Shown: positions 45,136-63,514, counted from the first letter of the stretch. The stretch: 64,000 nt of DNA from Methanobrevibacter sp. (GCF_017447225.1 NZ_JAFSNZ010000043.1:1533-65532); one strand, 5' to 3'. A program made the numbers and translations. The notes: generated by a model not told the origin, from the letters alone.

Positions 45136-46108
45136 TCTCCTTAATTCTTGGATCTATGAAATAATATGAAATATCTGCAAGCAGGTTTCCAACAAATACA
45201 AATATTGCACTAATTACTACAATTCCTAAAAACAATGGCACATCATTTTGAAGACCTGCAGCTACTGCCGTTTGACCAATACCCGGATAGGAAAATACCT
45301 GTTCCACCATAACTGCACCACCAAATAATTCACTGAATGATAAGAATTGCAATGTGATTGCAGGCAATAATATATTTCTTATTCCATGATTTTTAATTAA
45401 ATCCCAGCCTTTTTCTCCTCTAGATTTTGCGAATAATACATAATCAGAAGATAAAACTTGAACTAATTCATTACGTGTATACATTGCAATTGGCGCCAAA
45501 CCAACTAAACTCAAAGTCAATGTAGGAAGAACCAGCCTTGATGCCCATTCCATAAATGTCGCATCCGTACTTTTTACACCTATTGGAACTCCAAACCCTA
45601 TTGGGAACCAACCTAAATAGACTGAAAATACCATTAAAACAAGCATTCCAACCCAAAAAGATGGAGCTGATTGAATTGCATAGCAATATACTTTTATAGC
45701 CTTATCAATCCATGAACCTTTATTTTTACCAGCGACTACCCCAAATACAAAACCGAGAATTCCACTTAATACCCAAGAGATAGCCATTAAAACTACAGAA
45801 GCAGAAAACTTATCTATAATTACATCCATGACAGGGGCACGATATATCAATGAAGTACCAAGATTGCCTTGAATTAAATCTAAAAGCCAATGATATATTT
45901 TTGTCGTTAACGGAACATTAGTACCAAAATACTGCTCTAAAATTTGGCGTTGTGCTTCTGATACCGCAGCACCTTTTAAATAAGCATTAACTGGATCAAT
46001 AGGGGATAAATCTAATAATACAAAACTAAAAATTGCAACAGCAATCATCAATATTATAAAACGAATTAACTTATAACCAAAATATTTTGCTATTTTTTGT
46101 TTATTCAA
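45119..46108 (-). CDS. ABC transporter permease (peptide/nickel OppB/NikB type)
   Basis: 329 aa. YKLIRFIILMIAVAIFSFVL N-terminus and DYVLFAKSRGEKGW (EAA-loop region). Confidence 0.8.
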   Translation of the reverse strand: MNKQKIAKYFGYKLIRFIILMIAVAIFSFVLLDLSPIDPVNAYLKGAAVSEAQRQILEQYFGTNVPLTTKIYHWLLDLIQGNLGTSLIYRAPVMDVIIDKFSASVVLMAISWVLSGILGFVFGVVAGKNKGSWIDKAIKVYCYAIQSAPSFWVGMLVLMVFSVYLGWFPIGFGVPIGVKSTDATFMEWASRLVLPTLTLSLVGLAPIAMYTRNELVQVLSSDYVLFAKSRGEKGWDLIKNHGIRNILLPAITLQFLSFSELFGGAVMVEQVFSYPGIGQTAVAAGLQNDVPLFLGIVVISAIFVFVGNLLADISYYFIDPRIKENEFND

Positions 46109-46160
46109 TGAAATAAACCCCCTTGAAAAACTTTAAAAAAAAAATAAAAAAAGGAAATGA

Positions 46161-47771
46161 TTAAGCGGAGTTGGTTCTGGTCCACTCACAGATATTAATC
46201 AAAACATCATTTCCTAAACCATCAGGTTGATTTCCGATATCAATACCGTTTTTAATGAAATAATTGTAGTCGTAGTTTACAAGCCATGCAAATGGAGCAT
46301 CACCAGCAGGACCCCATCCTCCGCCGTTAACAAGAGCAGATTGTGCCCATAAAGTGTTAGCAGTAGATAAATCATTGGAGTGCATTGCCTCTTCCATCAA
46401 TTTATCAGAATCAGAGTTATTGTATAAGTTTGGATTCATATAGAAATCATCTGCTTCTTTACTGTGATATTGTTGATAAATTGATTTGTATGGGTCTGGA
46501 GAAGTCTGTTGCATTACTGCTGCTGAACTGTACATATTTGCATAAATGGTATCCCAGTCAGCACCTACGAGTTTTACTTCTATACCTAATTCTTTAGCTT
46601 GTTCAGCAAATACTGTTGCGAGAGATTGTCTGTCAAGATAATCTGGCTGGTAGTATAAATCAAATGATGCTTTTGTTCCGTTTTTCTCCACGATTCCATC
46701 ACCATCAGTATCTTCCCATCCTCCATCTTTCAGGATTTGTTTTGCTTCATCAACATTAGCATCTTGGACTTTAGCATCAGGATTTGCATAGTCTCTTGTA
46801 TCTACACTTGTGAATTCAGGAGTAGCATGACCAGAAAATATTTCATCACACATTTTTTGACGGTCAATACCAACATTTAATGCTTCCCTAATTGCTTTAT
46901 CAGCAGTTACATTGTTACCTATTTTGGAACCTGCCGGACTTACAGCACCGGTATCTTCAAGATATGGTAAGGATATACCCTGTGCTCTTCCTGCAGATAC
47001 TTCATAGAACTGATAACCATCCACAGTTTGGTTTAATGCTGAAGTTGCAACTGGTACAACATCAACTTGACCTGATTTAGCGAGTTCTAACCAAGTAGCT
47101 TCATCAGGGAATAATAATGTAACTTGAGTAAAGTATGGTTTATCTCCGTAATAATTATCATTTATTTTGAAGATTGCTTGTTGACCTTTATCCCAGTGGT
47201 CCAATACATATGGTCCAGTACCAACAGGATTTTGGCCATAAGTGGAATTATCATATTCTTCAGGTACAATACCAAGATATCTTAAATCATAAATAAAAGT
47301 TGATCTTGGTTCTACTAATTGAAATTCAACACATGTAGCGTTTTTAGCAACAGCTTTATCAAGATTGGTTAAATCCAAGTCTGATTCAGTTTCTTTTGCT
47401 TTGTTAAATGTGAATGCAACATCATTTGCGTCAAATGTTGAATTGTCTGAGAATTTAACATCATCTCTTACATTTACAGTCCATGTTAAACCATCTTCAC
47501 TGATTGAATAATCAGTAGCTAAATCTGGAACAATAGTTCCATTTGCATCTGTTTTGAATAAACAGCTTTGTACTAATGGATTGTAGTTCTGGTGTCCGCA
47601 TCCCCAACCGGTAAGTGGGTCAAAACCAGATTCAGGTTCTTTAATATTACTGTGTGCTGCAACAGTTAAATGAGTAGGATCAGTATCTGTTGAACCCCCC
47701 ATAAACATAGCGGCAGCAGCAATAATAGCCACAAGAACCACAGCTCCACCGATTAATATTTTTTTATCCAT
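46161..47771 (-). CDS. ABC transporter substrate-binding protein, family 5 (peptide/nickel/opine type)
   Basis: 536 aa from MDKKILIGG (GGAG 8 nt upstream; track TTG at 47786). N-terminal membrane anchor, then family-5-like blocks (GTGPYVLDHWDKGQ). Confidence 0.75.
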   Translation of the reverse strand: MDKKILIGGAVVLVAIIAAAAMFMGGSTDTDPTHLTVAAHSNIKEPESGFDPLTGWGCGHQNYNPLVQSCLFKTDANGTIVPDLATDYSISEDGLTWTVNVRDDVKFSDNSTFDANDVAFTFNKAKETESDLDLTNLDKAVAKNATCVEFQLVEPRSTFIYDLRYLGIVPEEYDNSTYGQNPVGTGPYVLDHWDKGQQAIFKINDNYYGDKPYFTQVTLLFPDEATWLELAKSGQVDVVPVATSALNQTVDGYQFYEVSAGRAQGISLPYLEDTGAVSPAGSKIGNNVTADKAIREALNVGIDRQKMCDEIFSGHATPEFTSVDTRDYANPDAKVQDANVDEAKQILKDGGWEDTDGDGIVEKNGTKASFDLYYQPDYLDRQSLATVFAEQAKELGIEVKLVGADWDTIYANMYSSAAVMQQTSPDPYKSIYQQYHSKEADDFYMNPNLYNNSDSDKLMEEAMHSNDLSTANTLWAQSALVNGGGWGPAGDAPFAWLVNYDYNYFIKNGIDIGNQPDGLGNDVLINICEWTRTNSA

Positions 47772-47815
47772 AAATATTCTCCACAATATAATTGAAAAAG
47801 ATATATTAAAATCAA

Positions 47816-49514: not shown

Positions 49515-50474
49515 ATGGAAAAATTATTAGATGTTGAAAATGTTTCAATTTCATTCATCCAATATACTAAAGGATTAAATCAGCGCGATTTAAAAGTTAT
49601 CACTGATTTAACATTAGATATATCTGAAGGAGAAATTTTGGCAGTATTGGGTTCAAGCGGTTCTGGAAAAAGCCTACTTGCACATGCAATATTTGGAATA
49701 CTTCCAGAAAATGCAAATTTAAATGGAAAAATCAAATTTAAAGGAAAAGAATTATCCCAAAAAGATAAAGAAGAAATAAGAGGTAAAGACATAGTTTTAG
49801 TACCTCAATCAGTAAACTTTTTAGACCCATTAATGAAAATTTCAGATCAAGCTATTGGACATACCGAAAGTGACAGTGAAAAAGCCGAAAAGAAATTGAA
49901 ACAGAGAGAAATCTTTGAACATTATAATTTAGGCCCCGAAGTAGATGATATGTACCCATTCCAATTATCCGGAGGAATGGCTAGAAGAGTGCTGGTTTCA
50001 ACCGCATTGCTGTCAGATCCGAAACTCGTTGTAGCAGATGAACCAACGCCAGGACTTGATGAAAAAACTGTAGAAGAAACATTAAATCATTTTAAACATA
50101 TGAAAGAAGATGGTATTGGAGTGCTTCTAATCACACATGACATTCATGCAGCATTGGATGTTGCAGACAGAATCGGAATATTCTATTCAGGTTATGTGAT
50201 AGAAATCGCTGAAACAAAAGACTTCTCCGGAGATGGAGAAAACCTGCTTCACCCATACACAAAGGCATTATACAAGGCACTGCCTGCAAACGGATTTGAA
50301 CTGACAAAAGGACATCAGCCACTACACGGAGAAATCCCTGAAGGATGTCCATATTACGACAGATGCGAAATGGCATTTGACAGATGCAAAAAAGAAAGAC
50401 CTCAGCTAATAAGCCTTGGAAACAAAAAAGTCAGATGCTTTAAATATGAAGAAGGTGAAATAAATGAAGCTTAA
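49515..50474 (+). CDS. ABC transporter ATP-binding protein (OppD/NikD type)
   Basis: 319 aa. Walker A GSSGSGKS, signature LSGGMARR, Walker B VVADEPT and the C-terminal Cys-rich oligopeptide-type extension (EGCPYYDRCEMAFDRC). AAAGGTGAT Shine-Dalgarno sequence. Confidence 0.85.
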   Translation: MEKLLDVENVSISFIQYTKGLNQRDLKVITDLTLDISEGEILAVLGSSGSGKSLLAHAIFGILPENANLNGKIKFKGKELSQKDKEEIRGKDIVLVPQSVNFLDPLMKISDQAIGHTESDSEKAEKKLKQREIFEHYNLGPEVDDMYPFQLSGGMARRVLVSTALLSDPKLVVADEPTPGLDEKTVEETLNHFKHMKEDGIGVLLITHDIHAALDVADRIGIFYSGYVIEIAETKDFSGDGENLLHPYTKALYKALPANGFELTKGHQPLHGEIPEGCPYYDRCEMAFDRCKKERPQLISLGNKKVRCFKYEEGEINEA

Positions 50475-51078
50475 GGCAGAAAATATCTCATTCAAATATC
50501 CGTCCGCCAAAGACTATATTTTAAAAGACATCAATCTGGAATTGGATAACAAAAAAATCATCGGACTGATTGGAGACAGCGGAAGCGGAAAATCAACATT
50601 ATGCAAAATACTTTCAGGTCATATTCAGAAATATGAAGGTGAAGTGAAATTCAATGATGAAAAACTTCCAAACAAAGGTTTCAAACCGGTTCAATTAATA
50701 TATCAACATCCTGAAAAGGTAATGAATCCCAAATGGAAAATGGATAAAGTGCTGTCTGAATCATGGGATGTAGATGATGCAACATTATCAGAATTCGGTA
50801 TTCAAAAATCCTGGCTGACACGTTTCCCACAGGAGCTGTCCGGCGGAGAACTTCAAAGATTTTCAGTTCTAAGAGCAGTGAATCCGAAAACACAGTTCCT
50901 GATAGCTGATGAGATGACAACGATGCTTGATGCGATAACACAAGTTCAAATCTTAGATTCAGTGATAAAAATAGTGAAACAGAGAGATATGGGATTTTTA
51001 CTTGTAAGTCACGATATGGATTTAGTAGACACCATATGTGATGATAAAATCTATTTCAAAGATATTAATGGTATCTAA
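50464..51078 (+). CDS. ABC transporter ATP-binding protein (short OppF/NikE type)
   Basis: 204 aa. Walker A GDSGSGKST, signature LSGGELQR, Walker B LIADEMT. 11-nt overlap with the preceding gene. Confidence 0.85.
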   Translation: MKLKAENISFKYPSAKDYILKDINLELDNKKIIGLIGDSGSGKSTLCKILSGHIQKYEGEVKFNDEKLPNKGFKPVQLIYQHPEKVMNPKWKMDKVLSESWDVDDATLSEFGIQKSWLTRFPQELSGGELQRFSVLRAVNPKTQFLIADEMTTMLDAITQVQILDSVIKIVKQRDMGFLLVSHDMDLVDTICDDKIYFKDINGI

Positions 51079-53579: not shown

Positions 53580-53858
53580 TTATTCTTCTTCATCTTCAGA
53601 TACGTAGATTTCTTTTTTGACTTCAGAGTTTGCATCGACAACAATGTCTTCAGCGTTTTCTCTCATGTCCTGGAATGCTTCTTCAGCGTCCCTTTTAGCA
53701 GACATAACTGCAGCCATTCCTTTGGTGGTTGCTTCTTTAACTGCTTCAGATTCCAATACTTTTTTACCTACGATAGCTGTTGCAACACCTGCTGCAAAGA
53801 TTAATACATGCTTGTGTTTTAAAGCTTCATCAACATATCTTCTTACCATATTTTTCAT
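53580..53858 (-). CDS. small hypothetical protein with one hydrophobic helix and an acidic tail
   Basis: 92 aa (VLIFAAGVATAIVGKKVL ... VSEDEEE). Lies directly downstream of the metal ATPase. No family assigned. Confidence 0.4.
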   Translation of the reverse strand: MKNMVRRYVDEALKHKHVLIFAAGVATAIVGKKVLESEAVKEATTKGMAAVMSAKRDAEEAFQDMRENAEDIVVDANSEVKKEIYVSEDEEE

Positions 53859-54053: not shown

Positions 54054-56642
54054 TTAGAATAGTGGATCTTTCACCATTCCAATTCTAAATGAATTCAGGA
54101 TAACCAAAAGGGTTAATCCCAAGTCTCCGAAACCTACAGACATCATCAATGTGATTATTCCCAGAATAGCCAATACTACACAGAGTAACTTAACTGCAAT
54201 AGCTACTGTAATGTTCTGTTTGATGATGCTCATTGTCTTATGGCTTAAAGAGAACAGGTAAGGCAATTTGGAAATATCATCCTGCATTAATGCAACATCA
54301 GCTGTTTCAATAGCAACATCAGATCCTGCAGCACCCATAGCAATACCGATATTAGCTCTCGCAAGTGCCGGTGCATCGTTAATACCGTCACCAACCATAG
54401 CAACATCACCGAATTTATTTCTGATTGTATCCAGGATATTCAATTTGTCTTCAGGCATCAGATTTGAATAAACATATTTTATTCCAATCTCATCTGCAAC
54501 CTTGTGAGCGGCAATCTTGTTATCACCTGTCAACATTACTGTCTGTACTCCCTGTTTATTTAAATCAGCAATGACTTCTGATGCGTTGTCCCTGATTTTA
54601 TCGGATACTGTAATTAATGCCAAAACATTTTGTGAGTTTCCGACAAATACCACAGTTTTTCCTTCTGCAGAGTATTTGTTGACATCATCATGTGAAATTT
54701 CAAAGCTGCTGCCTTCAATCAGTGATTCGTTGGCTGCGTAATACTGTTCGCCATCAATGAATCCCACAATTCCTTTACCAGGAACGTTTTTGAAATCGCT
54801 TATTTCTTCAAATTCTATGTCATTTAATGTAGCATAATTTACAATAGCCTGTGCAATAGGGTGTGAAGACTGGTTTTCCAGAGACGCTGCAATTTTAACA
54901 GCATCATCTTTTGAGATTGAATCATCTAAAACTTCAATTTCACTTAATTCCAATTTACCTTCTGTTAATGTACCTGTTTTATCAAATATGACTGCTTTTA
55001 TCCCTTTCATTTCCTCAACATATGTACTTCCCTTAATCAAAACACCGTTTCTGGTAGCGGAAGTAATAGCAGACACCATACCGACAGGTGTTGAAATCAG
55101 GAATGCACAAGGACATGAAATTACCAGAAGTGAAAGTGCCTTATAAATCCAGTCAATCAAATTCTGACCGAATAACAATGGAGGAATGAATGCGACACAA
55201 GCTGCAGCAACCATCATGACAGGAGTATAATATTTAGCAACTTTTTCAACTAAAGACTCTGTTTCAGATCTGTTGAGCTGTGATCTTTTGACTAAAGTTA
55301 CAATCTTGGAAATTACAGAATCCTTTGCCTTTTTAGTTACAACCATTTCAAAGTATCCATCTTCGTTAACAGTTCCTGAAAATACCTCATCACCAACTTC
55401 CTTAAGGACAGGAACACTTTCACCAGTAATTGAAGCCTGATTGACTGAAGATGAACCTGAAATAACATTACCGTCCAATGGAACTTTATCTCCAGGTTTA
55501 ACAATTACAATATCGCCGATGTTTACGTCATCAACATTTTTCAGCTCTTCGGAATCCCCCACTTTAACTCTAGCGGTTTCAGGAGCGATTTCGACTAAGG
55601 ATTTGATTGAACGTTTAGCTCTGTGTTCAGCATAGTCTTCAAGGAATTCTGCAATATAGTAAAGGAATGTTACAGCAGCACCTTCTTCAGGGTGTCCAAT
55701 GATAAATGAAGCAACACAAGCAATACACATAAGCATTGCCGGACCGACAGTGTGCCTTTTAACCAATGACCTGTAAGCCATTCCTGCAATTTCATAACCT
55801 GCAATTATAGCTGCAATCATGAAAATGATTGTGACAACAGTTGAATTGAATGATAAGAATTCTAAAATGTGGCCTGCTGCAAACATGATTCCGCTTGCAA
55901 CGATGATTTGGATAGGTCTGTTAGCTATTAAAGGTTTTCCTTCAGCTAAAAGTTCCTCTTCCTCATGTCCGTGATCATGGTCATGGTCATCATCTGCACA
56001 GTCAGGACAACCGCAAATGCTTATTTCCACATCATCGTCATCGTGGTCATGGCAGGAACAATCCGGGTCTGAACAGGTATCCTTTTCTTCATGTTCATGG
56101 TCGTGGTCATGACAATCACAATCCGGGTCACTACAGGAATCCTCTTCATGCTCATGCTCATCAGAACAACAATCATCATCACAACAAGAATCCTCATGCT
56201 CGTGTTCATGCTCATGCTCGTGTTCATGCTCATGCTCATCAGAACAACAATCATCATCACAACAAGAATCCTCATGTTCATGTTCATGTTCATGGTCGTG
56301 ATCATGACAATCACAATCAGGATCGCTACAGGAATCCTCCTCTTCATGCTCATGCTCATGATGATGTTCATGGTCGTGGTCGTGATCATGGTCATCTGCA
56401 CAGTCAGGACAGCCACAAATGTTTATATCCACGTCTTCATCATAATCTATTTCTTCTCTGTGATCATGCACACTTAAATCTGTATTTGCTTGATAATCTC
56501 TTAATAATTGTTTATCAAAGTGCTGTCTATTCTCACAGTGAATTTCCTCACAATTAGGATCAAAACAAATGAAATTGAAATGTTCTGGATTGTGACAGTC
56601 TTTATCATCACAATCATGTTCATAACACTTATTTTCTGTCAT
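54054..56642 (-). CDS. heavy-metal translocating P1B-type ATPase (Cd/Zn/Co/Pb class) with a His/Cys/Asp/Glu-rich N-terminal domain
   Basis: 862 aa. TM6 CPC (LLVISCPCAFLISTPV), phosphorylation site FDKTGTLT, SSHPIAQAI and hinge VGDGINDAPAL. No ferredoxin-fold HMA (GMxCxxC) domain is visible; the first ~230 aa are low-complexity metal-ligand repeats. Confidence 0.9.
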   Translation of the reverse strand: MTENKCYEHDCDDKDCHNPEHFNFICFDPNCEEIHCENRQHFDKQLLRDYQANTDLSVHDHREEIDYDEDVDINICGCPDCADDHDHDHDHEHHHEHEHEEEDSCSDPDCDCHDHDHEHEHEHEDSCCDDDCCSDEHEHEHEHEHEHEHEDSCCDDDCCSDEHEHEEDSCSDPDCDCHDHDHEHEEKDTCSDPDCSCHDHDDDDVEISICGCPDCADDDHDHDHGHEEEELLAEGKPLIANRPIQIIVASGIMFAAGHILEFLSFNSTVVTIIFMIAAIIAGYEIAGMAYRSLVKRHTVGPAMLMCIACVASFIIGHPEEGAAVTFLYYIAEFLEDYAEHRAKRSIKSLVEIAPETARVKVGDSEELKNVDDVNIGDIVIVKPGDKVPLDGNVISGSSSVNQASITGESVPVLKEVGDEVFSGTVNEDGYFEMVVTKKAKDSVISKIVTLVKRSQLNRSETESLVEKVAKYYTPVMMVAAACVAFIPPLLFGQNLIDWIYKALSLLVISCPCAFLISTPVGMVSAITSATRNGVLIKGSTYVEEMKGIKAVIFDKTGTLTEGKLELSEIEVLDDSISKDDAVKIAASLENQSSHPIAQAIVNYATLNDIEFEEISDFKNVPGKGIVGFIDGEQYYAANESLIEGSSFEISHDDVNKYSAEGKTVVFVGNSQNVLALITVSDKIRDNASEVIADLNKQGVQTVMLTGDNKIAAHKVADEIGIKYVYSNLMPEDKLNILDTIRNKFGDVAMVGDGINDAPALARANIGIAMGAAGSDVAIETADVALMQDDISKLPYLFSLSHKTMSIIKQNITVAIAVKLLCVVLAILGIITLMMSVGFGDLGLTLLVILNSFRIGMVKDPLF
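55962..56423 (-). repeat. in-frame repetitive DNA encoding the HEHE/DSCC/CGCPDC metal-ligand modules
   Basis: A near-identical ~50-nt block (catgctcatgctcatcagaacaacaatcatcatcacaacaagaatcctcatg) occurs twice, starting near 56148 and 56225. Other cat/gtc/aca-rich units recur throughout. Confidence 0.8.
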
Positions 56643-56659
56643 TTAAAACACCATTAAAT

Positions 56660-57037
56660 TTATTCTAAAATGTGTTCCAAACCAACTTTATATATCATTT
56701 CGATGTGTAAATCGGTAAGTGAATACCTTGCCATTTTACCTTCTTTTTGATATTTTACAATATTATTTGCTCTTAAAATTCTTAATTGATTTGAAACAGT
56801 AGTTTGATTTAAATTTAATGTTTCAGAAATGTCACAAACACATAAATCTTCGATAGCTAGTAATGAAAGTATTTTTAATCTTGTAGGATTGCCAAATATT
56901 TTAAAAAACTCAGCTAATTCAGAATATTGGTCTTCTTCAATCATACGATCCTTTACACGATCAACAACATCCTGATGTGTACATACTACTTCACATACAT
57001 CATCATTGTTATTTTCAAGATTTTTATTGTCTGCCAT
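56660..57037 (-). CDS. ArsR/SmtB-family metalloregulator, CadC-like
   Basis: 125 aa. wHTH with the alpha3 motif DLCVCDISETLNLNQTTVSNQLRILR plus an N-terminal Cys pair (VCEVVCTH), as in alpha3N sensors. It ends 17 nt before the ATPase start, so the two genes are probably one operon. Confidence 0.8.
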   Translation of the reverse strand: MADNKNLENNNDDVCEVVCTHQDVVDRVKDRMIEEDQYSELAEFFKIFGNPTRLKILSLLAIEDLCVCDISETLNLNQTTVSNQLRILRANNIVKYQKEGKMARYSLTDLHIEMIYKVGLEHILE

Positions 57038-57099
57038 TTTTAATCACATTAAATTATATCTACTTCATATTTTATAATGTTAATATATATAAATATTTT

Positions 57100-57121
57100 C
57101 ATATCACAATATTATGATATG
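57100..57121. promoter_or_regulatory. candidate ArsR/CadC operator: 22-bp near-perfect palindrome CATATCAcAATATTaTGATATG
   Basis: Arms CATATCA/TGATATG flank a palindromic AATATT core (20 of 22 positions symmetric). It lies 63 nt upstream of the regulator ATG. ArsR/SmtB repressors typically autoregulate through such imperfect 12-2-12-type repeats. Confidence 0.45.
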
Positions 57122-57143
57122 TTAATGTAAAAAAATAAAAAAA

Positions 57144-59402
57144 TTATTCCACATCTTTAAGGGCTTCAACCATATTCTGGTTTTTGATTTTTCCAGAAAA
57201 GAGCAGATTAACAACAATGGACACAGTAAATGTTATTACTGCGCTTAGGGCAATGTTTCCCAACGTTAATGAAGGAATATAATACAGGGATTCTCCTGCA
57301 GCATCCATCATGAGTGTCATCAGATAGAATCCCAAAGGAATTCCTAAAATAAATCCTATTGCTGTAAATACCAGATTCTGCGTTAATAATAATTTCCTCA
57401 AATCACCTGTTTTAAAACCCAATACTTTTAGAGTAGCTATTTCACGCTCGATTTCTGTAAATGACAGTATACCTAAATTATACAACACCACAATAGCTAA
57501 AAGCACTGCAAAGAAAATTAGAATTGAAACCATCATCATTACAGAAGAGGTCATCTTATCCCATGCATCAACCATTTCATCAATTGAACTGACGCTTTTT
57601 ATTGAATCGTAATCATCATCCACTTTTTCAGAAGTTATGATGCTGGTTGGAGTGAAATCTAAATCCAAATCATTTAACTTATCCGCAGATAAGATAATTC
57701 CCTGACTTAAAGGCTCACCATGAATGTTGGTTACTTTACATGTTATCCAATCGTCAGAGCCTATGATATGCCATTTTATAGTATCTCCAACACCAACATC
57801 AAGACTTTCTGCCATTTTTTGTGAAAGTGATATATCTGTATCAGACAAGTTAATAGGATTTTCATTCTTATCCGTCTGAGATATCAAATCCGTGTCATTT
57901 AATACAAGTAACATTGCAGTCTCCTCATTTCCTTGAGCCTTTATTTCAATAGCTTGCTCCATAATTTGACTGCCGTTGACTTCATCGGTTACGCTATCAA
58001 TATCTGCAAGTGAAGCGCCGCTGTCAATGATCAGTTTGGATTCGAAATGTGAAATGTCATCATATTCCCAGGTCTTTAAGTTATCCATTGAATCGCCCAT
58101 ACCAAAAGCAGACACCAGAAGAGCTACACAACCCATTACACCGACAATCGCCATCAATGCCCTGAACTTGTTTCTTTTTGCATCACGATAATTCCAGCGA
58201 AGATTGAATGACAGTTTATCCCAAAGCCTTGATTTTTCCATAAATCCCGAAGATGAAATGTTTGGAGATTTAGGCCTCATGGTATTTGCAGGATTTTCCT
58301 TTGAAATGTTACGGGCTGCAAAATAGGAAACTGCAAGTGAAGATATAACCATCAAAGCAGCCACAACGACAAAACTGATATCAAAGCCAGGATTCCATTC
58401 AGGAAGTGAATATCTGGCAGTCATTGTAGGATAAAACAAATCAGGAATAATCATAGGGCCCAAAATCAGACCTAAAACTGCACCTGCAAGCACCAGCCAG
58501 AATCCATAGGACATAAAATGGAAAATAATTGTCCGGTTTTTATATCCTACAGCCTTTAAAACACCGATTTGGGTTCTTTGATGGGCAATGATACGGGTCA
58601 TTGTTGTTAAAAGAGTCAGAAATGTAACTAGAATAAACACAATTGGGAAAACATTACCTATCATTTTGTGCTGAGCCATTTCCTCATTGAACTGGGCAAC
58701 ACTTACATGATCATCACGTTTTGTAAATGAAAGATATTCCACAGAGTCATCCAGGGATTGTTTGAAATCATCCGGCGTATCATTGAATTTAACCAGCAAA
58801 ACATTATACTGAATATCAGTTGGAAATGCCTTATGAGACATGTAAGCAAAACCTATATCCTTAAAATCCGGAATTATTGAAGTTGGGGATGCTTCATAAA
58901 CATATTCCGGAGAATAACCGATTCCCTTAATCTCTTTTTCTATTGAAATTCCATTGAAATCAAATGAAATGTTATCCCCAACAGTCAGATTCTGGGCATC
59001 TGCAAATCTTTTATCAAGCCATACACCAGAATCATCAGAGAGATTAAAGTCCTCACCTTCAGACACATAAAATTTAGATATTTCATTATCCTCTACAAAA
59101 TGCAGAGTAATGTCCGGATCATTTGAAAAGTTTCCAACGGACTGTACGACAAGTTGCTTTTCACTATCCGTTGTGAAATTGTTTATTTCATCCAAAGCAT
59201 CATCTGTAATGGTAGTATTATAAATCCATCCATCAGCAAGATTAGTTTCACTGTAAAAATCTGAACTGGTCTGTTCAAGACCATAATACTCCCCACAAAC
59301 CCCACAGAATGCAAAAATGCCTAGAAAAGCCATTAAAAATATTGAAATGAATTGTGTTTTATTGATTTTAATGTCTCTAAGCATCTTTTTAGATAATGAC
59401 AT
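57144..59402 (-). CDS. FtsX/MacB-type ABC transporter permease with two FtsX domains (no adjacent ATPase gene)
   Basis: 752 aa. N-terminal MLRDIKINKTQFISIFLMAFLGIFAF, two 4-TM bundles each preceded by a large extracytoplasmic domain, and conserved (I/L)(G/A)VLKA(V/L)G(Y/F)K blocks (IGVLKAVGYK, IATLKVLGFK). Confidence 0.75.
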   Translation of the reverse strand: MSLSKKMLRDIKINKTQFISIFLMAFLGIFAFCGVCGEYYGLEQTSSDFYSETNLADGWIYNTTITDDALDEINNFTTDSEKQLVVQSVGNFSNDPDITLHFVEDNEISKFYVSEGEDFNLSDDSGVWLDKRFADAQNLTVGDNISFDFNGISIEKEIKGIGYSPEYVYEASPTSIIPDFKDIGFAYMSHKAFPTDIQYNVLLVKFNDTPDDFKQSLDDSVEYLSFTKRDDHVSVAQFNEEMAQHKMIGNVFPIVFILVTFLTLLTTMTRIIAHQRTQIGVLKAVGYKNRTIIFHFMSYGFWLVLAGAVLGLILGPMIIPDLFYPTMTARYSLPEWNPGFDISFVVVAALMVISSLAVSYFAARNISKENPANTMRPKSPNISSSGFMEKSRLWDKLSFNLRWNYRDAKRNKFRALMAIVGVMGCVALLVSAFGMGDSMDNLKTWEYDDISHFESKLIIDSGASLADIDSVTDEVNGSQIMEQAIEIKAQGNEETAMLLVLNDTDLISQTDKNENPINLSDTDISLSQKMAESLDVGVGDTIKWHIIGSDDWITCKVTNIHGEPLSQGIILSADKLNDLDLDFTPTSIITSEKVDDDYDSIKSVSSIDEMVDAWDKMTSSVMMMVSILIFFAVLLAIVVLYNLGILSFTEIEREIATLKVLGFKTGDLRKLLLTQNLVFTAIGFILGIPLGFYLMTLMMDAAGESLYYIPSLTLGNIALSAVITFTVSIVVNLLFSGKIKNQNMVEALKDVE

Positions 59403-59456: not shown

Positions 59457-59699
59457 TTAAAAGAATAATAATGATAAAAACCCTATGAAAATAAAAAAGA
59501 AATTCAATCCATATAAGGACAAAGCTCCTTTTAAAAATTTATCCTCTTTTGATTTTGTATAGAAATAATAAGTAACAATACAACCTATTATTAAAATAGG
59601 AAGCGTTATAACTATACTTATATACTTTCTAAACATGAATATTGCTATTGGAATAATTATTGCTATAATCTGTTTTGCATCCATATTTAATCCCTCCAA
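59457..59699 (-). CDS. small membrane protein (3 predicted TM helices)
   Basis: 80 aa hydrophobic. Overlaps the upstream gene by 13 nt (or starts at the internal Met at 59684). Confidence 0.4.
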   Translation of the reverse strand: MEGLNMDAKQIIAIIIPIAIFMFRKYISIVITLPILIIGCIVTYYFYTKSKEDKFLKGALSLYGLNFFFIFIGFLSLLFF

Positions 59700-60406
59700 C
59701 TTTGCATCAATCCAGTAAAAGTAACTGTATCAAATTGATTAATTAACAATGAAAATACAACCAATATAAAACCAAGATAGATTATAAGTCCAATGAGTTC
59801 CCTATTGTCAAATGGCAGATATTTGTTAACCTTATCAGGAAATATAATCCACAAATAACTTAATGTTGTAATGATGAAAATAATGACTCCGCCAGCTATA
59901 GAAGAACAGTGAAATGCAGAATAATAACCCTGCAAAACAACAAACATTGCACACCAAAGAAAATATAAAGGTCTGTAGCCTATTACTTCTTTATCACCAA
60001 TCCATCTGCTTTCATCACCAAATGCATTGAATCTCAAACTAACACCTAAAAAAGGCAACAGATAGATTAATGCATATAAAACTGATTTAAATATTCCAAT
60101 ATCATATAAAAAAAACAAAAATAAAAAAACAGCAATTGACGAACCATAAAATGAAATATAACCAAATGCCTCAGTCGTATAACTCTTAAAATATTCTCTT
60201 TTAAAATGAAATTTCTCATTTAATTCATTGTGAAAAAATGTATAGATAAAGCCGCCTAAAAATGTGAAAATCACAGATATTTCAAAAACAATTGAAAATA
60301 AATTTATTTTAAAAAAATAAAATATAACAACAGCAAAAAAGCTACACATGCCCACAAATATCAAAAGAGCATTTTTTTTAGATATTGGTTCATTGAAATT
60401 AAACAT
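59687..60406 (-). CDS. 7-TM membrane protein, paralog 2 of a local pair
   Basis: 239 aa. Shares with 60452..61210 the blocks LPFL(G/A)(V/I)(S/G)LRF..F.D.S, (W/I)(I/L)(I/V)FPDK(V/I)NKY(L/M)PF(D/E)NR and a C-terminal SQF(D/T)TV.F. Confidence 0.5.
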   Translation of the reverse strand: MFNFNEPISKKNALLIFVGMCSFFAVVIFYFFKINLFSIVFEISVIFTFLGGFIYTFFHNELNEKFHFKREYFKSYTTEAFGYISFYGSSIAVFLFLFFLYDIGIFKSVLYALIYLLPFLGVSLRFNAFGDESRWIGDKEVIGYRPLYFLWCAMFVVLQGYYSAFHCSSIAGGVIIFIITTLSYLWIIFPDKVNKYLPFDNRELIGLIIYLGFILVVFSLLINQFDTVTFTGLMQSWRD

Positions 60407-60451: not shown

Positions 60452-61210
60452 TCAATCTACAAATCCCATTACTTTTACAAATGGAACAGTAGTGAATTGA
60501 CTGAATAATATGAAAAATATAATCAATGCGATTGCTAAATATATTGCTTCTCCTTTTTTATTTCTATTTTCAAATGGCATATATTTATTGATTTTATCTG
60601 GAAATACCAGCCAAATGAAGCAGAATGATGTTGATAATATTAAAGCAATTATATTTGTTGGTGAAGTTTCAAAAAATCCTTGAACATAGCCCAAATAACA
60701 ACAGATAGCTAAAACTGGACAATAATAATTAGGTTCATATCCTGCATCATATACTATTTTACCGTTTTCTTCCAGACTAGCATCATTGAATGTTTTAAAT
60801 CTCAAACCTATTGCCAAAAATGGCAATGCAAAGATGATAGATAGTAAAATTGATGTGTATACGTTAATATCCGCACATAAACATATTAAGAGCAAAGCTA
60901 ATGCAGTTGTTGAAAAACCCAAAAGAGTAAATGCACCAATTTGTCGTGAATATCCTCTAAAATTATTGAAATTATACAAGCCATATTTTTTGTCCAATTC
61001 GTCACTATAATACTCTACAAGAAATATTCCACCTAAAGAAAATAAGAGCAGGAAGAAAAATAGAAAGCCTAATAAAGTAAAACTTGACATGGCTATTGCA
61101 ATAATTAAAAATATTCCAAATATTTTCAGTGCACGTTTTTTCACAGTTTCCTTATCTGAAAAATATTTATCATTTCCATCAAAATCGAATAAACCAAATA
61201 TATTCATCAT
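60452..61210 (-). CDS. 7-TM membrane protein, paralog 1 of a local pair
   Basis: 252 aa polytopic protein. See the paralog. No recognised family. Confidence 0.5.
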   Translation of the reverse strand: MMNIFGLFDFDGNDKYFSDKETVKKRALKIFGIFLIIAIAMSSFTLLGFLFFFLLLFSLGGIFLVEYYSDELDKKYGLYNFNNFRGYSRQIGAFTLLGFSTTALALLLICLCADINVYTSILLSIIFALPFLAIGLRFKTFNDASLEENGKIVYDAGYEPNYYCPVLAICCYLGYVQGFFETSPTNIIALILSTSFCFIWLVFPDKINKYMPFENRNKKGEAIYLAIALIIFFILFSQFTTVPFVKVMGFVD

Positions 61211-61255: not shown

Positions 61256-63514
61256 TTACGGTAAAGGAACACCAGTAAAACTAGAAACATAACCCTCCCC
61301 AGTATCTGTAACTGCTTTATAAAAATTTTTTCCACTTGGATCTCTTAATACCCCATTTGATAAACAATTAAGTCCCAAACCACCTAAACCAAATATTACT
61401 GCAGAACCTAATAATGGTTTTGCTAAAGCAGGGTATCTTATAGCAGATACTATACACATAGATGATGCTTCAATTGCAAAATCAGCGAAAATTCCTGTTG
61501 CATATTCAAATGCAATCCATTGGTCTTCAGTAATAGTTAAACTATTAAAATTTTCACTGAAACGATTATTAATAGAAGATTGTGAATTATTTACAATAAA
61601 TATTTCATAGACTTTTCCACTATTATTTTGTGTATTATCAGTCAAACCATCACAAAAACAATATGAATAATCTGAAGATAATGCTCCCTTATATAAAAAT
61701 CCATCAAATTCAGTAGTTACAGAAACAATTCCTGACGATTGATTAATTATTAACTTTTCAGAATAATCTTTCAAATCAACAATCAATAGTTCATTATTTT
61801 GTGCTAAACCAAACCAATCACCACATAAAATATGTTGTGATAATGAAGAAAGAGATCCGATAGAATTTATATTTGAAAATCCTAAAACTATACTTTCCAT
61901 ATCACTTAGCATGATTGAACATTCAAATCTGAAGTTTTTCATATTTGTATCATTATTGCTAGACAATATCATGTTCATACTTGGGTTAGGTACATGAATA
62001 TAACTCACACCACCATTCATTACTCCTGACATTACTACAGTATTTTCATTACGTGTCCATGTTAAATTATAAAAATCATCCTTTTCATTAGCTAAATTAT
62101 CACTCATATACATTGTCATTAAACCATTTAAAAATGTTCCATAACTAGCTTTTCTAATACCCATAGTATAGTTCTTATTTAACCAATAATTTATATCTTC
62201 ATTGGATATTTTTCTATCAGCAATCGTGAATGTTTGTATTGTGTTATATCCTGCTTGAGAATCAACGAAAACACCTGTATTGATTTTTTCTGTTTTTTCA
62301 ATTATTTCATTATTAATTATCAATTCTGTATCCATATATTCAAAATCAGGATTTTTATCAATCCTATCAGTTTCAGGAGTATAATGTAAAGTAGTATTTG
62401 TGTTTGTATAATTTAATAAATTTAAATTTCCATTTAAAAATTGATTATATGTAACATTATAAAAGAATATACCATTATAATAAACGTTTCCATTTGCTAA
62501 TTGTATTTTAAGTCCCGCATCATCATTAAACATTGAATTAGAGTATAAAACTTCTCCCCATTGATTGAAGTTTTTAATAAATGAAATTGCTTGTAAATCA
62601 AAACCATTTCTGTAAAGAGATGAATATGCGACACTGAATCCATTAATGTTGTTTTCATTGATTGTGTCATAATAATAAATTTTAACGTAATCTTTTTCAG
62701 TTTTAAGAAGGATTCCTTGAACTGTAGGCACATAATTTTGATTTACAGTAATTTTTTCTCCTGTTTTAGAAATGAAATAATTATCACCATCTGATAATTT
62801 TGTATAATTATTACTATATGCAAGACTAGCTTGACCATATACAAAAGCAAATATCTGTGATGTTGTAATTACAATTTCTCGAGTTTCATATACTTTTATT
62901 ATTCCATTTTCACCAGATTTAGCTATATATTCAGGAAGTAAACTATTAGGATTTACATAATTTAAGCCACTTACATTAAAATACATTGGAATATTTACAT
63001 TGTAAACTAAATTTGGTGTTAAATTTACAGTTATTATATTATTTTTTATAATTGAATTATAATATGTTGATCCAGTGTATGTTGTTGAAATTGAATATTG
63101 GCCATGAGGTAAATTTATATTAAGTTTAGCAATACCATTTTCATCAGTCATTATGGTGTGGGAAACACCATTGATTTGGAAAATAATGTTTTGATTTGGC
63201 ATTGAAAAATTATTGTTATCTTTTAAAACGGCATCAAAAGTATATCCTGTGTCTCTGAGAAGAATATTTTGTGTATTTAAATTGACATTTAATTTTGTGG
63301 AAGAGTCTACTCGTGTAATAATTTTTGTAGGTCCGGTATAAGCATTGTATTGAAATGTTCCTGAAAATGAACAATGTATAGGATAATCCTGAGGGTTTAG
63401 AAAATTGATTTTTAATTTAGCAATTCCATTATTATCACTTGTTCGTACATATGTAACACCATTAACATAGAAATTTACGTCTATATTGGGTAATGCTTTG
63501 TTTGATGGATCCAT
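61256..63514 (-). CDS. adhesin-like surface protein, distal portion (two Ig-like INGV modules, ~480-aa Asn/Tyr-rich region, C-terminal hydrophobic Gly-rich segment); probably the 3' part of a frameshifted larger gene
   Basis: 752 aa. Modules NIDVNFYVNGVTYVRTSDNNGIAKLKINF and QNIIFQINGVSHTIMTDENGIAKLNINL match the modules of the upstream fragment. The reading frame stays open 10 codons upstream of the annotated ATG and continues the module consensus there. Confidence 0.6.
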   Translation of the reverse strand: MDPSNKALPNIDVNFYVNGVTYVRTSDNNGIAKLKINFLNPQDYPIHCSFSGTFQYNAYTGPTKIITRVDSSTKLNVNLNTQNILLRDTGYTFDAVLKDNNNFSMPNQNIIFQINGVSHTIMTDENGIAKLNINLPHGQYSISTTYTGSTYYNSIIKNNIITVNLTPNLVYNVNIPMYFNVSGLNYVNPNSLLPEYIAKSGENGIIKVYETREIVITTSQIFAFVYGQASLAYSNNYTKLSDGDNYFISKTGEKITVNQNYVPTVQGILLKTEKDYVKIYYYDTINENNINGFSVAYSSLYRNGFDLQAISFIKNFNQWGEVLYSNSMFNDDAGLKIQLANGNVYYNGIFFYNVTYNQFLNGNLNLLNYTNTNTTLHYTPETDRIDKNPDFEYMDTELIINNEIIEKTEKINTGVFVDSQAGYNTIQTFTIADRKISNEDINYWLNKNYTMGIRKASYGTFLNGLMTMYMSDNLANEKDDFYNLTWTRNENTVVMSGVMNGGVSYIHVPNPSMNMILSSNNDTNMKNFRFECSIMLSDMESIVLGFSNINSIGSLSSLSQHILCGDWFGLAQNNELLIVDLKDYSEKLIINQSSGIVSVTTEFDGFLYKGALSSDYSYCFCDGLTDNTQNNSGKVYEIFIVNNSQSSINNRFSENFNSLTITEDQWIAFEYATGIFADFAIEASSMCIVSAIRYPALAKPLLGSAVIFGLGGLGLNCLSNGVLRDPSGKNFYKAVTDTGEGYVSSFTGVPLP

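What the first reader, a model, noticed from the sequence alone, without database searches (positions are those of the whole stretch)
55953..56642. P1B ATPase with a ~230-aa His/Cys/Asp/Glu N-terminus arranged in mirrored module order instead of an HMA domain
By my count the first 230 residues contain about 41 His and 29 Cys, with most of the remainder Asp/Glu. Recognisable modules are: A = I(N/S)ICGCPDCADD(D)HDHDH (residues ~73-90 and ~207-226); B = EDSCSDPDCDCHDHDHEHE (~102-120 and ~167-184, plus a variant KDTCSDPDCSCHDHDDDD at ~187-204); C = EDSCCDDDCCSDEHEHE (~124-140 and ~150-166), with a (HE)n run between the C copies. The order A-B-C-C-B-B'-A is quasi-palindromic at the protein level. 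A further Cys/His-rich leader (CYEHDCDDKDCHNPEH...CFDPNCEEIHCENRQH) precedes it. No GMxCxxC ferredoxin-fold domain is visible. His-rich tails are known in some Zn/Cd/Co P1B pumps, but this length, the vicinal CC pairs and the mirrored organisation are exceptional. They suggest a high-capacity metal-buffering or metal-sensing domain. The repetitive DNA, with two ~50-nt near-identical blocks, should be prone to in-frame expansion and contraction.
Basis: seen in the sequence. Interest (0 to 1): 0.65.

Follow-up and report, generated by a model that had tools for sequence, protein, structure and literature searches.

The report
Modular Cys/His metal-binding arm on zinc pump
A gut methanogen's zinc/cadmium export pump carries, in place of the usual small metal-binding domain, a 230-residue arm of nine Cys3His-type modules and His/Asp/Glu runs; the arm is conserved in its clade, changes module number quickly, and its "mirror" order is a by-product of that growth.

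Summary

The protein is a P1B-2 (ZntA/CadA-type) ATPase: CPC, the M5 Lys and the M6 Asp align with solved Shigella ZntA. No HMA domain is detected. It sits 17 nt downstream of an SmtB/CadC-like ArsR repressor.

The N-terminus is not a one-off. About 88 species-level genomes, nearly all herbivore-gut Methanobrevibacter plus a few Methanosphaera, share one plan:
- two CX4CX4CX4H modules and a conserved linker;
- an ICGCPDCADD module;
- 0 to 6 or more internal D-x-C-x-D-x-D-C-x-C-H-D modules with (HD/HE)n tails;
- a second ICGCPDCADD module.

The mirror order comes from this conserved bracket plus a recent 78-nt tandem duplication containing a 54-nt exact repeat. An otherwise identical protein from another assembly lacks exactly that unit. 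Among proteins whose cores are at least 98.6% identical, arrays range from 88 to 182 aa.

The leader has no Pfam or PDB match and is confined to this clade.

It most likely acts as a cytoplasmic multi-site Zn/Cd sensor and capture domain that regulates the pump; this is inferred, not shown. I rate it a new variant of a known kind, of moderate interest.

The parts
54054..56642 (-). CDS of the 862-aa P1B-2 heavy-metal ATPase (whole gene, stop included)
   Evidence: ORF. Pfam E1-E2_ATPase 8.9e-53 and Hydrolase 9.1e-34. TIGR01525 609 bits and TIGR01512 (Cd family) 514 bits, both above cutoff. Best PDB match is Shigella ZntA 4UMV, 8.8e-113.
54054..55952 (-). ATPase core, residues 231-862: MA/MB plus M1-M6 helices and the A, P and N domains. 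Motifs: TGES 406, CPC 510-512 (55107-55115), DKTGT 554-558 (54969-54983), SSHP 592, GDGINDAP 751, and M5 NITVAIAVK / M6 GDLG
   Evidence: Motif scan and hydropathy. Residue-by-residue alignment to SsZntA places CPC, K and D on C392/C394, K693 and D714 (alignment; residue numbers from my knowledge of 4UMV).
56520..56627 (-). Leader, residues 6-41: two tandem CX4CX4CX4H (Cys3His) modules, L1 and L2
   Evidence: Sequence. C6, C11, C16, H21, C26, C31, C36 and H41 are invariant in 57 homologues. Only 28 hits among 1.84 billion representatives, all N-terminal fragments resembling this family's leader. No Pfam or PDB match.
56427..56519 (-). Conserved linker, residues 42-72 (FDKQLLRDYQ..DLSV.DHREEIDYDEDVD), partly helical in models
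   Evidence: Near-invariant columns K44, L46, L47, Q51, D55, S57, H61, E63, I65, D66, Y67, E69, D70 and V71. A helix at 39-53 / 44-53 appears in both low-confidence AF2 models.
56340..56426 (-). Module A1, residues 73-101: INICGCPDCADD plus an HD/HE run
   Evidence: Present as the first array module in all 80 loci that reach it.
56274..56339 (-). Module B1, residues 102-123: EDSCSDPDCDCHDHDHEHEHEH
   Evidence: Matches the family B consensus E-x-D-x-C-[ST]-D-[DP]-D-C-[GD]-C-H-D-H.
56196..56273 (-). Module C1, residues 124-149: EDSCCDDDCCSDE(HE)n, a Cys4 variant. This is the 78-nt unit absent from the 836-aa allele (the deletion can be placed in any register of the repeat).
56145..56195 (-). Module C2, residues 150-166: a second copy of the Cys4 variant, sharing a 54-nt exact repeat with C1
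   Evidence: About 2x unitig depth on the shared block.
56085..56144 (-). Module B2, residues 167-186: same peptide as B1, 47/51 nt identical, all differences synonymous
56025..56084 (-). Module B' (B3), residues 187-206: KDTCSDPDCSCHDHDDDDVE, the penultimate module seen with little change in most of the longer homologues inspected
55953..56024 (-). Module A2, residues 207-230: ISICGCPDCADDDHDHDHGHEEEE, followed by the invariant ELLAEGKP junction to helix MA
   Evidence: A second A module is present in 57 of 61 full-length family members.
56660..57037 (-). ArsR/SmtB-family metalloregulator (125 aa), 17 nt upstream of the ATPase start and probably co-transcribed
   Evidence: HTH_5 2.1e-16. NF033788 84 bits, above the 55-bit cutoff. 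Best PDB matches are SmtB 6.6e-20, CadC and CzrA. CX3C at 15-19, CVC in alpha3 and DLHx10Hx2E at the C-terminus, read from the sequence. The same gene lies directly upstream in 78 of 79 related loci.
57038..57143 (-). AT-rich intergenic region upstream of arsR: candidate promoter (TATA-like TTTATATATA) and candidate operator palindrome CATATCAtaatattGTGATATG
   Evidence: Read from the sequence. Inverted repeats are listed, but in so AT-rich a stretch these can arise by chance; not tested further.

Best explanation
The gene encodes a Zn(II)/Cd(II)/Pb(II)-exporting P1B-2 P-type ATPase of an uncultured herbivore-gut Methanobrevibacter, in a two-gene operon with an SmtB/CadC-like repressor.

The usual ferredoxin-fold HMA domain is replaced by a clade-specific cytoplasmic N-terminal domain with the plan LL-A-[B]n-A:
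- two CX4CX4CX4H modules and a conserved, partly helical linker;
- an ICGCPDCADD module;
- an expandable array of D-x-C-x-D-x-D-C-x-C-H-D modules, each followed by an (HD/HE)n run;
- a closing ICGCPDCADD module next to the first membrane helix.

Inferred mechanism:
- Each module offers a Cys3His ligand set (Cys4 in the C variant). That would give about nine thiolate-based Zn/Cd sites in this protein, plus weaker His/carboxylate sites.
- By analogy with the N- and C-terminal metal-binding domains of other P1B pumps, metal loading of this arm senses cytoplasmic Zn/Cd. It then relieves inhibition of, or feeds metal to, the transmembrane CPC/K/D site. It is a regulatory antenna rather than part of the transport path.

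Shown:
- The number of internal modules changes by in-frame gain and loss of direct DNA repeats.
- The A-B-C-C-B-B'-A order is the product of the conserved A...A bracket and a recent tandem duplication of C.
For: Pump class:
- Pfam and NCBIfam place it in the P1B / Cd family.
- The best solved relative is ZntA 4UMV, with CPC, the M5 Lys and the M6 Asp aligned.
- TGES, DKTGT and GDGINDAP are present.

Regulator:
- It is SmtB/CadC-like, with alpha3N-type Cys and the alpha5 DxHx10Hx2E motif (plus the sequence).
- The synteny holds in 78 of 79 loci.

Domain plan and conservation:
- The plan is seen.
- The leader Cys/His residues are invariant.
- The B-module consensus from 79 modules has C 100%, D+2 100%, H+8 97% and D+9 97%.
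- Cys counts are mostly multiples of three.
- B1 and B2 differ only synonymously.

Clade restriction:
- 88 genomes, nearly all Methanobrevibacter, with two labelled Methanosphaera and a few Methanobacteriaceae or unnamed archaeal MAGs.
- 28 fragment hits among 1.84 billion representatives.
- No Pfam, PDB or plasmid match.

Expansion and contraction:
- 54-nt exact repeat within a 78-nt period.
- P0001 has an identical leader (75/75) and core (634/634) but lacks 26 aa. Its DNA is identical upstream and has 5 SNPs downstream, offset by exactly 78 nt.
- Arrays of 88, 127, 153 and 182 aa sit on cores at least 98.6% identical.

Literature analogies:
- The HMA4 C-terminus, with 13 di-Cys motifs and a His stretch, binds about 10 Zn with nanomolar affinity through the di-Cys motifs (PMC6255694; PMC10654040).
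- The 35-aa His-rich N-terminus of Bxa1 is needed for Cd/Zn/Ag tolerance (PMC2681177).
Against: - No metal-binding, transport or expression data exist for any member, and no RNA run could be found.
- Both AlphaFold models of the N-terminus have very low confidence (pLDDT 25-45). Neither a fold nor the Cys3His site geometry is supported structurally.
- The free variation in module number (0 to 6 or more) argues that the exact number is not critical. Part of the array may therefore be near-neutral.
- His-rich tracts also bind Ni and Co, which methanogens handle in quantity, so the metal specificity of the arm itself is untested.
- Whether the arm inhibits, activates or delivers metal cannot be decided from sequence.
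Confidence: 0.65

Rival explanations
1. The arm is mainly a metal store or buffer: a membrane-tethered, metallothionein-like sink that sequesters Zn/Cd or hoards Ni/Co for the methanogen, rather than a regulator of the pump.
For: - High ligand density: 29 Cys and 41 His in 230 aa.
- CxC and CC motifs as in metallothioneins.
- The HMA4 C-terminus has been described as a high-capacity chelator (PMC10654040, PMC6255694).
- Module number varies as if capacity were being tuned.
Against: - It is always fused to the pump and always sits under an efflux-type repressor. A low-copy membrane pump gives little bulk capacity.
- The 28 leader hits were all short N-terminal fragments, and those inspected looked like truncated pump N-termini rather than a separate soluble protein.
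- The transmembrane signature is for export of Zn/Cd, not Ni/Co.
Confidence: 0.12
2. The mirrored A-B-C-C-B-B'-A order is itself functional: the two halves fold back on each other module by module, as a protein-level palindrome.
For: - The order is shared with the related genome L002.
- The two A modules are conserved family-wide and tend to carry the same variant, CGC/CGC or CAC/CAC.
- A very low-confidence AF2 model pairs the two CGC strands.
Against: - Most family members are simply LL-A-Bn-A with identical or near-identical B units. Minimal members are LL-A-A.
- P0001 has B-C-B, so C-C is a recent tandem duplication.
- With two B and two C units, 2 of the 6 possible orders are palindromic by chance (my count).
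- B' breaks the symmetry.
- All DNA repeats are direct, with no inverted repeats.
- Only pairing of the two A modules, a clasp that closes the array into a loop, remains a live idea, and it is untested.
Confidence: 0.08
3. The array is an assembly artefact, or a neutral low-complexity expansion without function.
For: - Many MAG contigs end inside the array or carry frameshifted ORFs there.
- Logan unitigs fragment across it.
- No long reads are available.
- Module number is highly variable.
Against: - The exact 862-aa product is recovered on 11 contigs from several samples and, by contig names, at least two assembly pipelines.
- The shared 54-nt block has about twice the depth of its flanks, and linker-spanning unitigs exist.
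- Cys spacing and flanking Asp/His are near-invariant across 79 modules.
- B1 and B2 differ only at synonymous sites.
- The reading frame is kept across about 60 full-length species versions.
Confidence: 0.05
4. The pump and its arm handle Cu(I), or Ni/Co, rather than Zn/Cd.
For: - CxC and CC clusters are typical Cu(I)-thiolate ligands, and His-rich tracts are typical Ni binders (my knowledge).
- The Cu-ATPase model TIGR01511 scores 399 bits, just above its 397-bit cutoff.
- An Opp/Nik-type ABC importer lies nearby.
Against: - The M5 Lys and M6 Asp, aligned with ZntA K693 and D714, are the P1B-2 signature. There is no Cu-type YN / MxxSS pattern and no P1B-4 SPC/HEGT pattern.
- TIGR01512 (Cd family) scores 514 bits against a 313-bit cutoff.
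- The regulator carries the Zn-type alpha5 motif and CadC-type Cys, without the NmtR-type C-terminal His extension (plus the sequence).
Confidence: 0.07

Closest known systems
ZntA / CadA P1B-2 Zn(II)/Cd(II)/Pb(II) ATPases (Shigella/E. coli ZntA, PDB 4UMV; Cupriavidus ZntA)
   Same: - The core aligns end to end with 4UMV (8.8e-113), including the CPC, M5 Lys and M6 Asp ligands and TGES/DKTGT/GDGxNDxP.
- It is controlled by a metal-sensing repressor.
- CmZntA also has His/Cys-rich sequence flanking its metal-binding domain (PMC10246665).
   Different: - There is no ferredoxin-fold HMA domain at all.
- Instead there is a 230-aa modular Cys3His/His-Asp-Glu domain with a clade-specific leader that has no Pfam or PDB relative.
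- The regulator is ArsR/SmtB-type rather than MerR-type ZntR.
C-terminal extension of plant HMA4/HMA2 (P1B-2)
   Same: - A long, probably disordered, Asp/Glu-rich extension with many Cys motifs (13 di-Cys in AtHMA4) plus a His stretch.
- It binds about 10 Zn with nanomolar affinity through the Cys motifs.
- It diverges much faster than the pump core: 64% against 96% identity between Arabidopsis species (PMC6255694). Here the core is at least 98.6% identical while the array changes from 88 to 182 aa.
   Different: - It lies at the opposite terminus and is not homologous.
- HMA4 retains an N-terminal HMA-like domain.
- The modules here are regular Cys3His units (CX4CXC-H), and di-Cys occurs only in the two C modules.
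- This is an analogy, not family membership.
His-rich N-termini of Bxa1 (Oscillatoria brevis) and CopB-type P1B-3 ATPases
   Same: A non-HMA, His-rich N-terminal metal-binding segment on a CPx-ATPase. In Bxa1 the first 35 aa are required for Cd/Zn/Ag tolerance in E. coli (PMC2681177).
   Different: - Those segments are short (about 35 to 100 aa), essentially His-only and not modular.
- Here there are nine Cys clusters, a conserved leader and linker, and a variable-number repeat array.
S. aureus cadCA and cyanobacterial smtB-type operons (ArsR/SmtB repressor plus efflux or sequestration gene)
   Same: An ArsR/SmtB repressor immediately upstream of its target. It carries N-terminal CX3C plus alpha3 CVC (CadC-like alpha3N) and DxHx10Hx2E (SmtB/CzrA alpha5) (plus the sequence; motif definitions in PMC11672702).
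   Different: It is in an archaeal host. Which of the two sites is allosterically active is unknown, and the operator has not been identified.
Metallothioneins (for example bacterial SmtA/BmtA)
   Same: CxC / CC / CxxC-rich sequence with some His ligands. Multi-metal thiolate binding is expected.
   Different: - It is not a small free protein, and there is no Pfam metallothionein hit.
- It is strongly acidic and His-rich.
- It is tethered to a pump.

Membership tests
P-type ATPase, subfamily P1B (heavy-metal) | DKTGT phosphorylation motif, TGE(S) A-domain motif, GDGxNDxP hinge, and HP in the N-domain | tested here: met
   TGES 406, DKTGT 554, SSHP 592 and GDGINDAP 751. Pfam E1-E2_ATPase plus Hydrolase. 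TIGR01525 609 bits against a 346-bit cutoff.
P1B-2 (Zn/Cd/Pb; ZntA/CadA) | CPC in M4, a conserved Lys in M5 (NX7K), and Asp in M6 (DxG) | tested here: met
   SCPCAFLISTP, NITVAIAVK and GDLG align column for column with the CPC, K and D of SsZntA 4UMV. TIGR01512 514 bits against a 313.5-bit cutoff. The equivalog models for E. coli-type ZntA are not reached (465 against 1240; 511 against 1005), as expected for a distant archaeal member.
P1B-2 (Zn/Cd/Pb; ZntA/CadA) | Eight transmembrane helices (MA, MB, M1-M6) with a cytoplasmic N-terminus | tested here: inconclusive
   Hydropathy finds the MA/MB, M1, M3, M4 and M5-M6 blocks, and the AF2 helices agree. However, M2 falls below my threshold and the model is of low confidence. 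The topology is inferred from homology to 4UMV.
P1B-2 (Zn/Cd/Pb; ZntA/CadA) | N-terminal HMA (ferredoxin-fold, GMxCxxC) domain; typical of the family but not obligatory | tested here: not met
   No PF00403 or any other Pfam hit in residues 1-235 at E<=10. The ZntA alignment starts at residue 253-260.
P1B-2 (Zn/Cd/Pb; ZntA/CadA) | Zn/Cd/Pb-stimulated ATPase activity and transport | not testable with these tools
   Needs biochemistry.
P1B-4 (Co/Zn/Cd; CzcP/CoaT) | SPC in M4, HEGxT in M6, and only six transmembrane helices | tested here: not met
   The M4 motif is CPC, not SPC; no HEGxT is present; MA/MB helices are present. The P1B-4 structure 7QBZ is only the second-best match.
ArsR/SmtB metalloregulators | Winged HTH_5 domain; metal sites alpha3N (N-terminal Cys plus CxC in alpha3) and/or alpha5 (DxHx10Hx2E/H) | tested here: met
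   HTH_5 2.1e-16. NF033788 84 bits against a 55-bit cutoff. The SmtB alignment covers D, H, H and E of alpha5. C15-x3-C19 and C66-V-C68 are read from the sequence. Metal response has not been tested.
Metallothionein | A small (<10 kDa) free Cys-rich protein forming metal-thiolate clusters, matched by family profiles | tested here: not met
   No Pfam metallothionein family is hit. The region is a domain of an 862-aa membrane protein.
New clade-specific N-terminal domain 'LL-A-[B]n-A' (proposed here) | Two CX4CX4CX4H modules, an HYDKQLLRDYQ...DHREEIDYDEDVD linker, a first ICGCPDCADD module, n CX4CXC-H modules, a last ICGCPDCADD module, and an ELLAEGKP junction | tested here: met
   All elements are present in the window protein and shared with 57 aligned homologues and 80 species loci.

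The most novel reading that the evidence does not exclude
The LL-A...A scaffold is a previously undescribed, metal-folded domain. The two invariant ICGCPDCADD modules would clasp together, with the two Cys3His leader modules, next to the pump core. The internal Cys3His/His array would form a loop whose module number sets how much Zn/Cd must be bound before the pump is released. In-frame repeat gain and loss would then make this an evolvable 'rheostat' for the efflux set-point, tuned between strains living in guts with different zinc loads.
Probability: 0.15. Interest if true: 0.7.

Novelty: new variant of a known kind. Interest (0 to 1): 0.45.

Why it matters
- Mechanism. The role of terminal metal-binding domains in P1B pumps is still debated: delivery, sensing or autoinhibition. 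Nearly all work concerns the ferredoxin-fold HMA domain. Here a whole clade of abundant gut and rumen methanogens has replaced it with a regular, countable array of Cys3His modules. Natural alleles range from 0 to 6 or more internal modules on almost identical cores. That is a ready-made allelic series for testing how the number of binding sites relates to pump activation.
- Annotation. The findings define a conserved leader domain with no Pfam or PDB relative.
- Assembly. The array is a hotspot where short-read MAG assemblies break or frameshift.
- Ecology. Zinc is heavily supplemented in livestock feed (my knowledge). Zinc tolerance of Methanobrevibacter therefore bears on rumen ecology and methane mitigation.

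Tried and rejected
- AlphaFold2 of the full protein with 57 homologues gave mean pLDDT 45, with the N-terminus at 23-33. A minimal LL-A-B-A N-terminus (P0082, 5 sequences) gave pLDDT 37. Both are too poor to interpret, so no fold search was run on them. The apparent pairing of the two CGC strands is noted only as an unreliable hint.
- Pfam at E<=10 on residues 1-235 and 1-90 found nothing. A profile of the leader against PDB sequences gave only chance-level hits, E>=0.34. tblastn of the N-terminus against 72,556 plasmids found nothing.
- No long-read (Nanopore) or RNA run could be listed, so transcription and long-read confirmation remain open. Logan unitigs (k=31) cannot by themselves count copies of a 54-nt repeat. 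I used depth ratios and independent assemblies instead.
- Literature searches on Methanobrevibacter together with P-type ATPase, histidine-rich or heavy-metal terms found no description of this N-terminus. The 2014 P1B diversity survey by Smith et al. is not held in the library, so I cannot exclude that it lists such sequences.
- I considered a second database search with the array alone. I did not run it, because the 120 best hits would again be this family.
- The 'skips 366' and similar joints rest on overlaps of 18-32 nt with unrelated His-coding contigs and were not interpreted.
- The off-frame ORFs 56021-56416(-) and 56091-56477(+) are artefacts of the CAT/GAT-rich repeat.


Full report
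**Observation.** The finding lies on the minus strand. ORF 54054..56642 encodes 862 aa, and 55953..56642 is exactly residues 1-230.
- The counts are exact: 41 His, 29 Cys, 55 Asp and 39 Glu, so 71% of the 230 residues are D/E/H/C. There are 94 acidic against 7 basic residues. The other 632 residues hold 8 His and 6 Cys.
- At the DNA level, C1 and C2 share a 54-nt exact repeat within a 78-nt period. B1 and B2 are 47/51 nt identical with only synonymous differences. A1 and A2 are 39/51 identical. All repeats are direct, with no inverted repeats.
- One small correction: each A module contains a CxxC (CPDC), though not in an HMA context.

**Is it assembled correctly?**
- The exact 862-aa product is called on 11 contigs from several ENA assemblies. 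By their contig names these come from at least two pipelines.
- In Logan unitigs of runs X1 and X2, the 54-nt shared block has about twice the depth of its flanks (35 against 16-20; 19 against 6-9). Unique unitigs span the linker between the copies.
- No long-read or RNA run was available.
- I consider a gross artefact unlikely, but long-read proof is missing.

**The pump.**
- Pfam finds E1-E2_ATPase and HAD domains only. NCBIfam puts it in the P1B and 'Cd family' subfamilies.
- The best solved relative is Shigella ZntA (4UMV, 8.8e-113), ahead of a P1B-4 pump and CopA.
- In the residue-level alignment, SCPCAFLISTP, NITVAIAVK and GDLG fall on the CPC, M5 Lys and M6 Asp of ZntA. TGES, DKTGT, SSHP and GDGINDAP are present.
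- The ZntA alignment begins around residue 253-260, at helix MA/MB. Nothing N-terminal to that matches any Pfam family, even at E<=10.

**The regulator.**
- Seventeen nucleotides upstream lies a 125-aa ArsR/SmtB protein. Its best solved relatives are SmtB, CadC and CzrA.
- Reading the sequence, it has a CadC-like N-terminal C-x3-C, the alpha3 C-V-C, and the alpha5 motif D-L-H-x10-H-x2-E. The motif definitions are in PMC11672702.
- The same gene sits directly upstream of the pump in 78 of 79 related loci.
- The pair therefore looks like a classical metal-derepressed Zn/Cd efflux operon. The AT-rich 106-nt region upstream (57038-57143) contains TATA-like sequence and a small palindrome, which I did not test.

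**The N-terminus across the family.** The 120 best homologues are all Methanobrevibacter and range from 774 to 922 aa. The length differences lie in the N-terminus. Broken at the Cys clusters, they all follow one plan:
- two CX4CX4CX4H modules (L, L);
- a conserved linker (HYDKQLLRDYQ..DLS..DHREEIDYDEDVD);
- a first I(S/N)(I/L)CGCPDCADD module (A);
- n internal modules (B);
- a last A module;
- the invariant ELLAEGKP junction to the membrane.

A profile of the leader recovered 88 species-level genomes. Nearly all are Methanobrevibacter MAGs from ruminants, deer, horse and other guts, including M. millerae and M. thaueri MAGs. A few are Methanosphaera, one of which has four L modules. Internal module number runs from 0 (LL-A-A, 766 aa) to 6 or more (928 aa).

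From 79 B modules the consensus is E-x-D-[VST]-C-[ST]-D-[DP]-D-C-[GD]-C-H-D-H. Cys is 100% conserved, D+2 100%, D+4 92%, H+8 97% and D+9 97%. This is a defined motif, not random low complexity. Like the L modules, it offers a Cys3His ligand set. Consistently, Cys counts in most homologues are multiples of three. The window's 29 arises because its two C modules are Cys4 variants (CC-x3-CC), which are rare in the family.

The leader is near-invariant at all its Cys and His positions. It is essentially confined to this clade. An exhaustive HMMER scan of 1.84 billion representative proteins gave 28 hits, all short N-terminal fragments resembling this family's leader. There are no PDB or plasmid matches.

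**The 'mirror'.**
- The A...A bracket is a conserved family feature, present in 57 of 61 full-length proteins. The penultimate KDTCSDPDCxCHDHDDDD module also recurs in most of the longer homologues inspected.
- Within that frame the window has B-C-C-B. An otherwise identical protein (P0001: leader 75/75, core 634/634) has B-C-B and lacks exactly 26 aa.
- Its DNA is identical upstream, differs by 5 SNPs over 3.7 kb downstream, and is offset by exactly 78 nt. It is therefore a different strain with one unit fewer.
- The related species genome L002 has the same order but an (HE)17 run, giving 891 aa. L001 has only A-B-B'-A, giving 797 aa. Both have cores at least 98.6% identical and an ArsR that is 100% identical.
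- The quasi-palindrome is thus the by-product of a conserved bracket plus a recent tandem duplication. B' breaks it. With two B and two C units, a third of the possible orders are palindromic anyway (my count).

**How it most likely works.**
- Shown: the pump class, the operon, the conserved modular plan, the clade restriction and the repeat dynamics.
- Inferred: each module is a Zn/Cd site (Cys3His or Cys4), giving about nine thiolate sites plus weaker His/Asp/Glu sites. The arm is cytoplasmic, as in all P1B pumps. Metal loading of the arm regulates or feeds the CPC/K/D transport site.
- The inference rests on analogy. HMA domains of ZntA and CopA are regulatory and dispensable for transport (PMC10246665, PMC11970713). 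The HMA4 C-terminus binds about 10 Zn through di-Cys motifs and modulates function (PMC6255694, PMC10654040). The His-rich N-terminus of Bxa1 is required for Cd/Zn tolerance (PMC2681177).
- Structure prediction did not help: pLDDT was 25-45 for the N-terminus.

**Rivals.**
- A storage or buffer role is possible. It is disfavoured by the obligate fusion to an efflux pump under an efflux repressor.
- A functional mirror is rejected, except for an untested A-A clasp.
- An artefact or neutral-junk reading is disfavoured by independent assemblies and by strong motif conservation.
- Cu or Ni/Co specificity is disfavoured by the transmembrane and regulator signatures.

**Comparison and novelty.**
- The gene is a member of the P1B-2 family: the defining motifs were tested and met, the HMA domain is absent, and activity cannot be tested here. 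Public databases already label homologues 'heavy metal / cadmium-translocating P-type ATPase'.
- What I could not find described is the N-terminal architecture (literature searches). The architecture comprises a conserved Cys3His leader and linker, two bracketing CGCPDC modules, and a variable-number Cys3His/(HD/HE)n array replacing HMA.
- It works like the HMA4 C-terminus or Bxa1/CopB His-rich termini but is not related to them.
- I rate it a new variant of a known kind, of moderate interest. Its main value is the natural allelic series of module numbers on near-identical pumps.

Noticed in passing
window 53580-53858 (-): A 92-aa protein lies about 200 nt downstream of the ATPase. It has one hydrophobic helix and an acidic tail, and is annotated PF19605/DUF6110 in the contig gene tables. 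It is conserved downstream of the pump in only 9 of the related loci, mostly the closest relatives.
   Followed up: partly
window 44272-47786 (-) and 49515-51078 (+): Opp/Nik-type ABC importer genes: an SBP_bac_5 binding protein at 46161-47786 and two ABC ATPases at 49515-51078, one with an oligo_HPY domain. ORFs 44272-46108 may be the permeases but were not scanned. This could be a nickel or peptide uptake system a few kb from the Zn/Cd efflux operon.
   Followed up: no
window 59687-60406 and 60452-61210 (-): Two tandem ORFs encoding hydrophobic, probably polytopic membrane proteins of 239 and 252 aa that look paralogous by eye. Neither has any Pfam match.
   Followed up: no
loci L010, L013, L031, L039, L047, L052, L058, L059, L062, L064, L070, L072, L075, L080: In many public MAGs the contig ends inside the His/Cys array, or the ORF is cut short soon after it (apparent frameshifts). 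The repeat is a systematic break or error point for short-read assemblies, so pump genes in these genomes may be mis-annotated as fragments or pseudogenes.
   Followed up: partly
L076 (Methanosphaera stadtmanae MAG) 4001-4252 onward; protein P0139: The Methanosphaera version has the leader duplicated (four CX4CX4CX4H modules) and uses CSC/CGC-type internal modules. Both of its A modules carry CxCDDC instead of CxCPDC, hinting at concerted evolution or co-adaptation of the two A modules.
   Followed up: partly
window 56021-56416 (-) and 56091-56477 (+): Two 128-131-aa ORFs overlapping the array in other frames or on the other strand, rich in M/I/T/V. They are mechanical products of the stop-free CAT/GAT/GAA repeat, not genes.
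   Followed up: yes
window 57144-59402 (-) and 61256-63514 (-): Two 752-aa ORFs of equal length. The first is an FtsX-family (MacB-like) permease immediately upstream of arsR. The second carries bacterial Ig-like (Big_3_5) domains, typical of Methanobrevibacter adhesin-like proteins.
   Followed up: no
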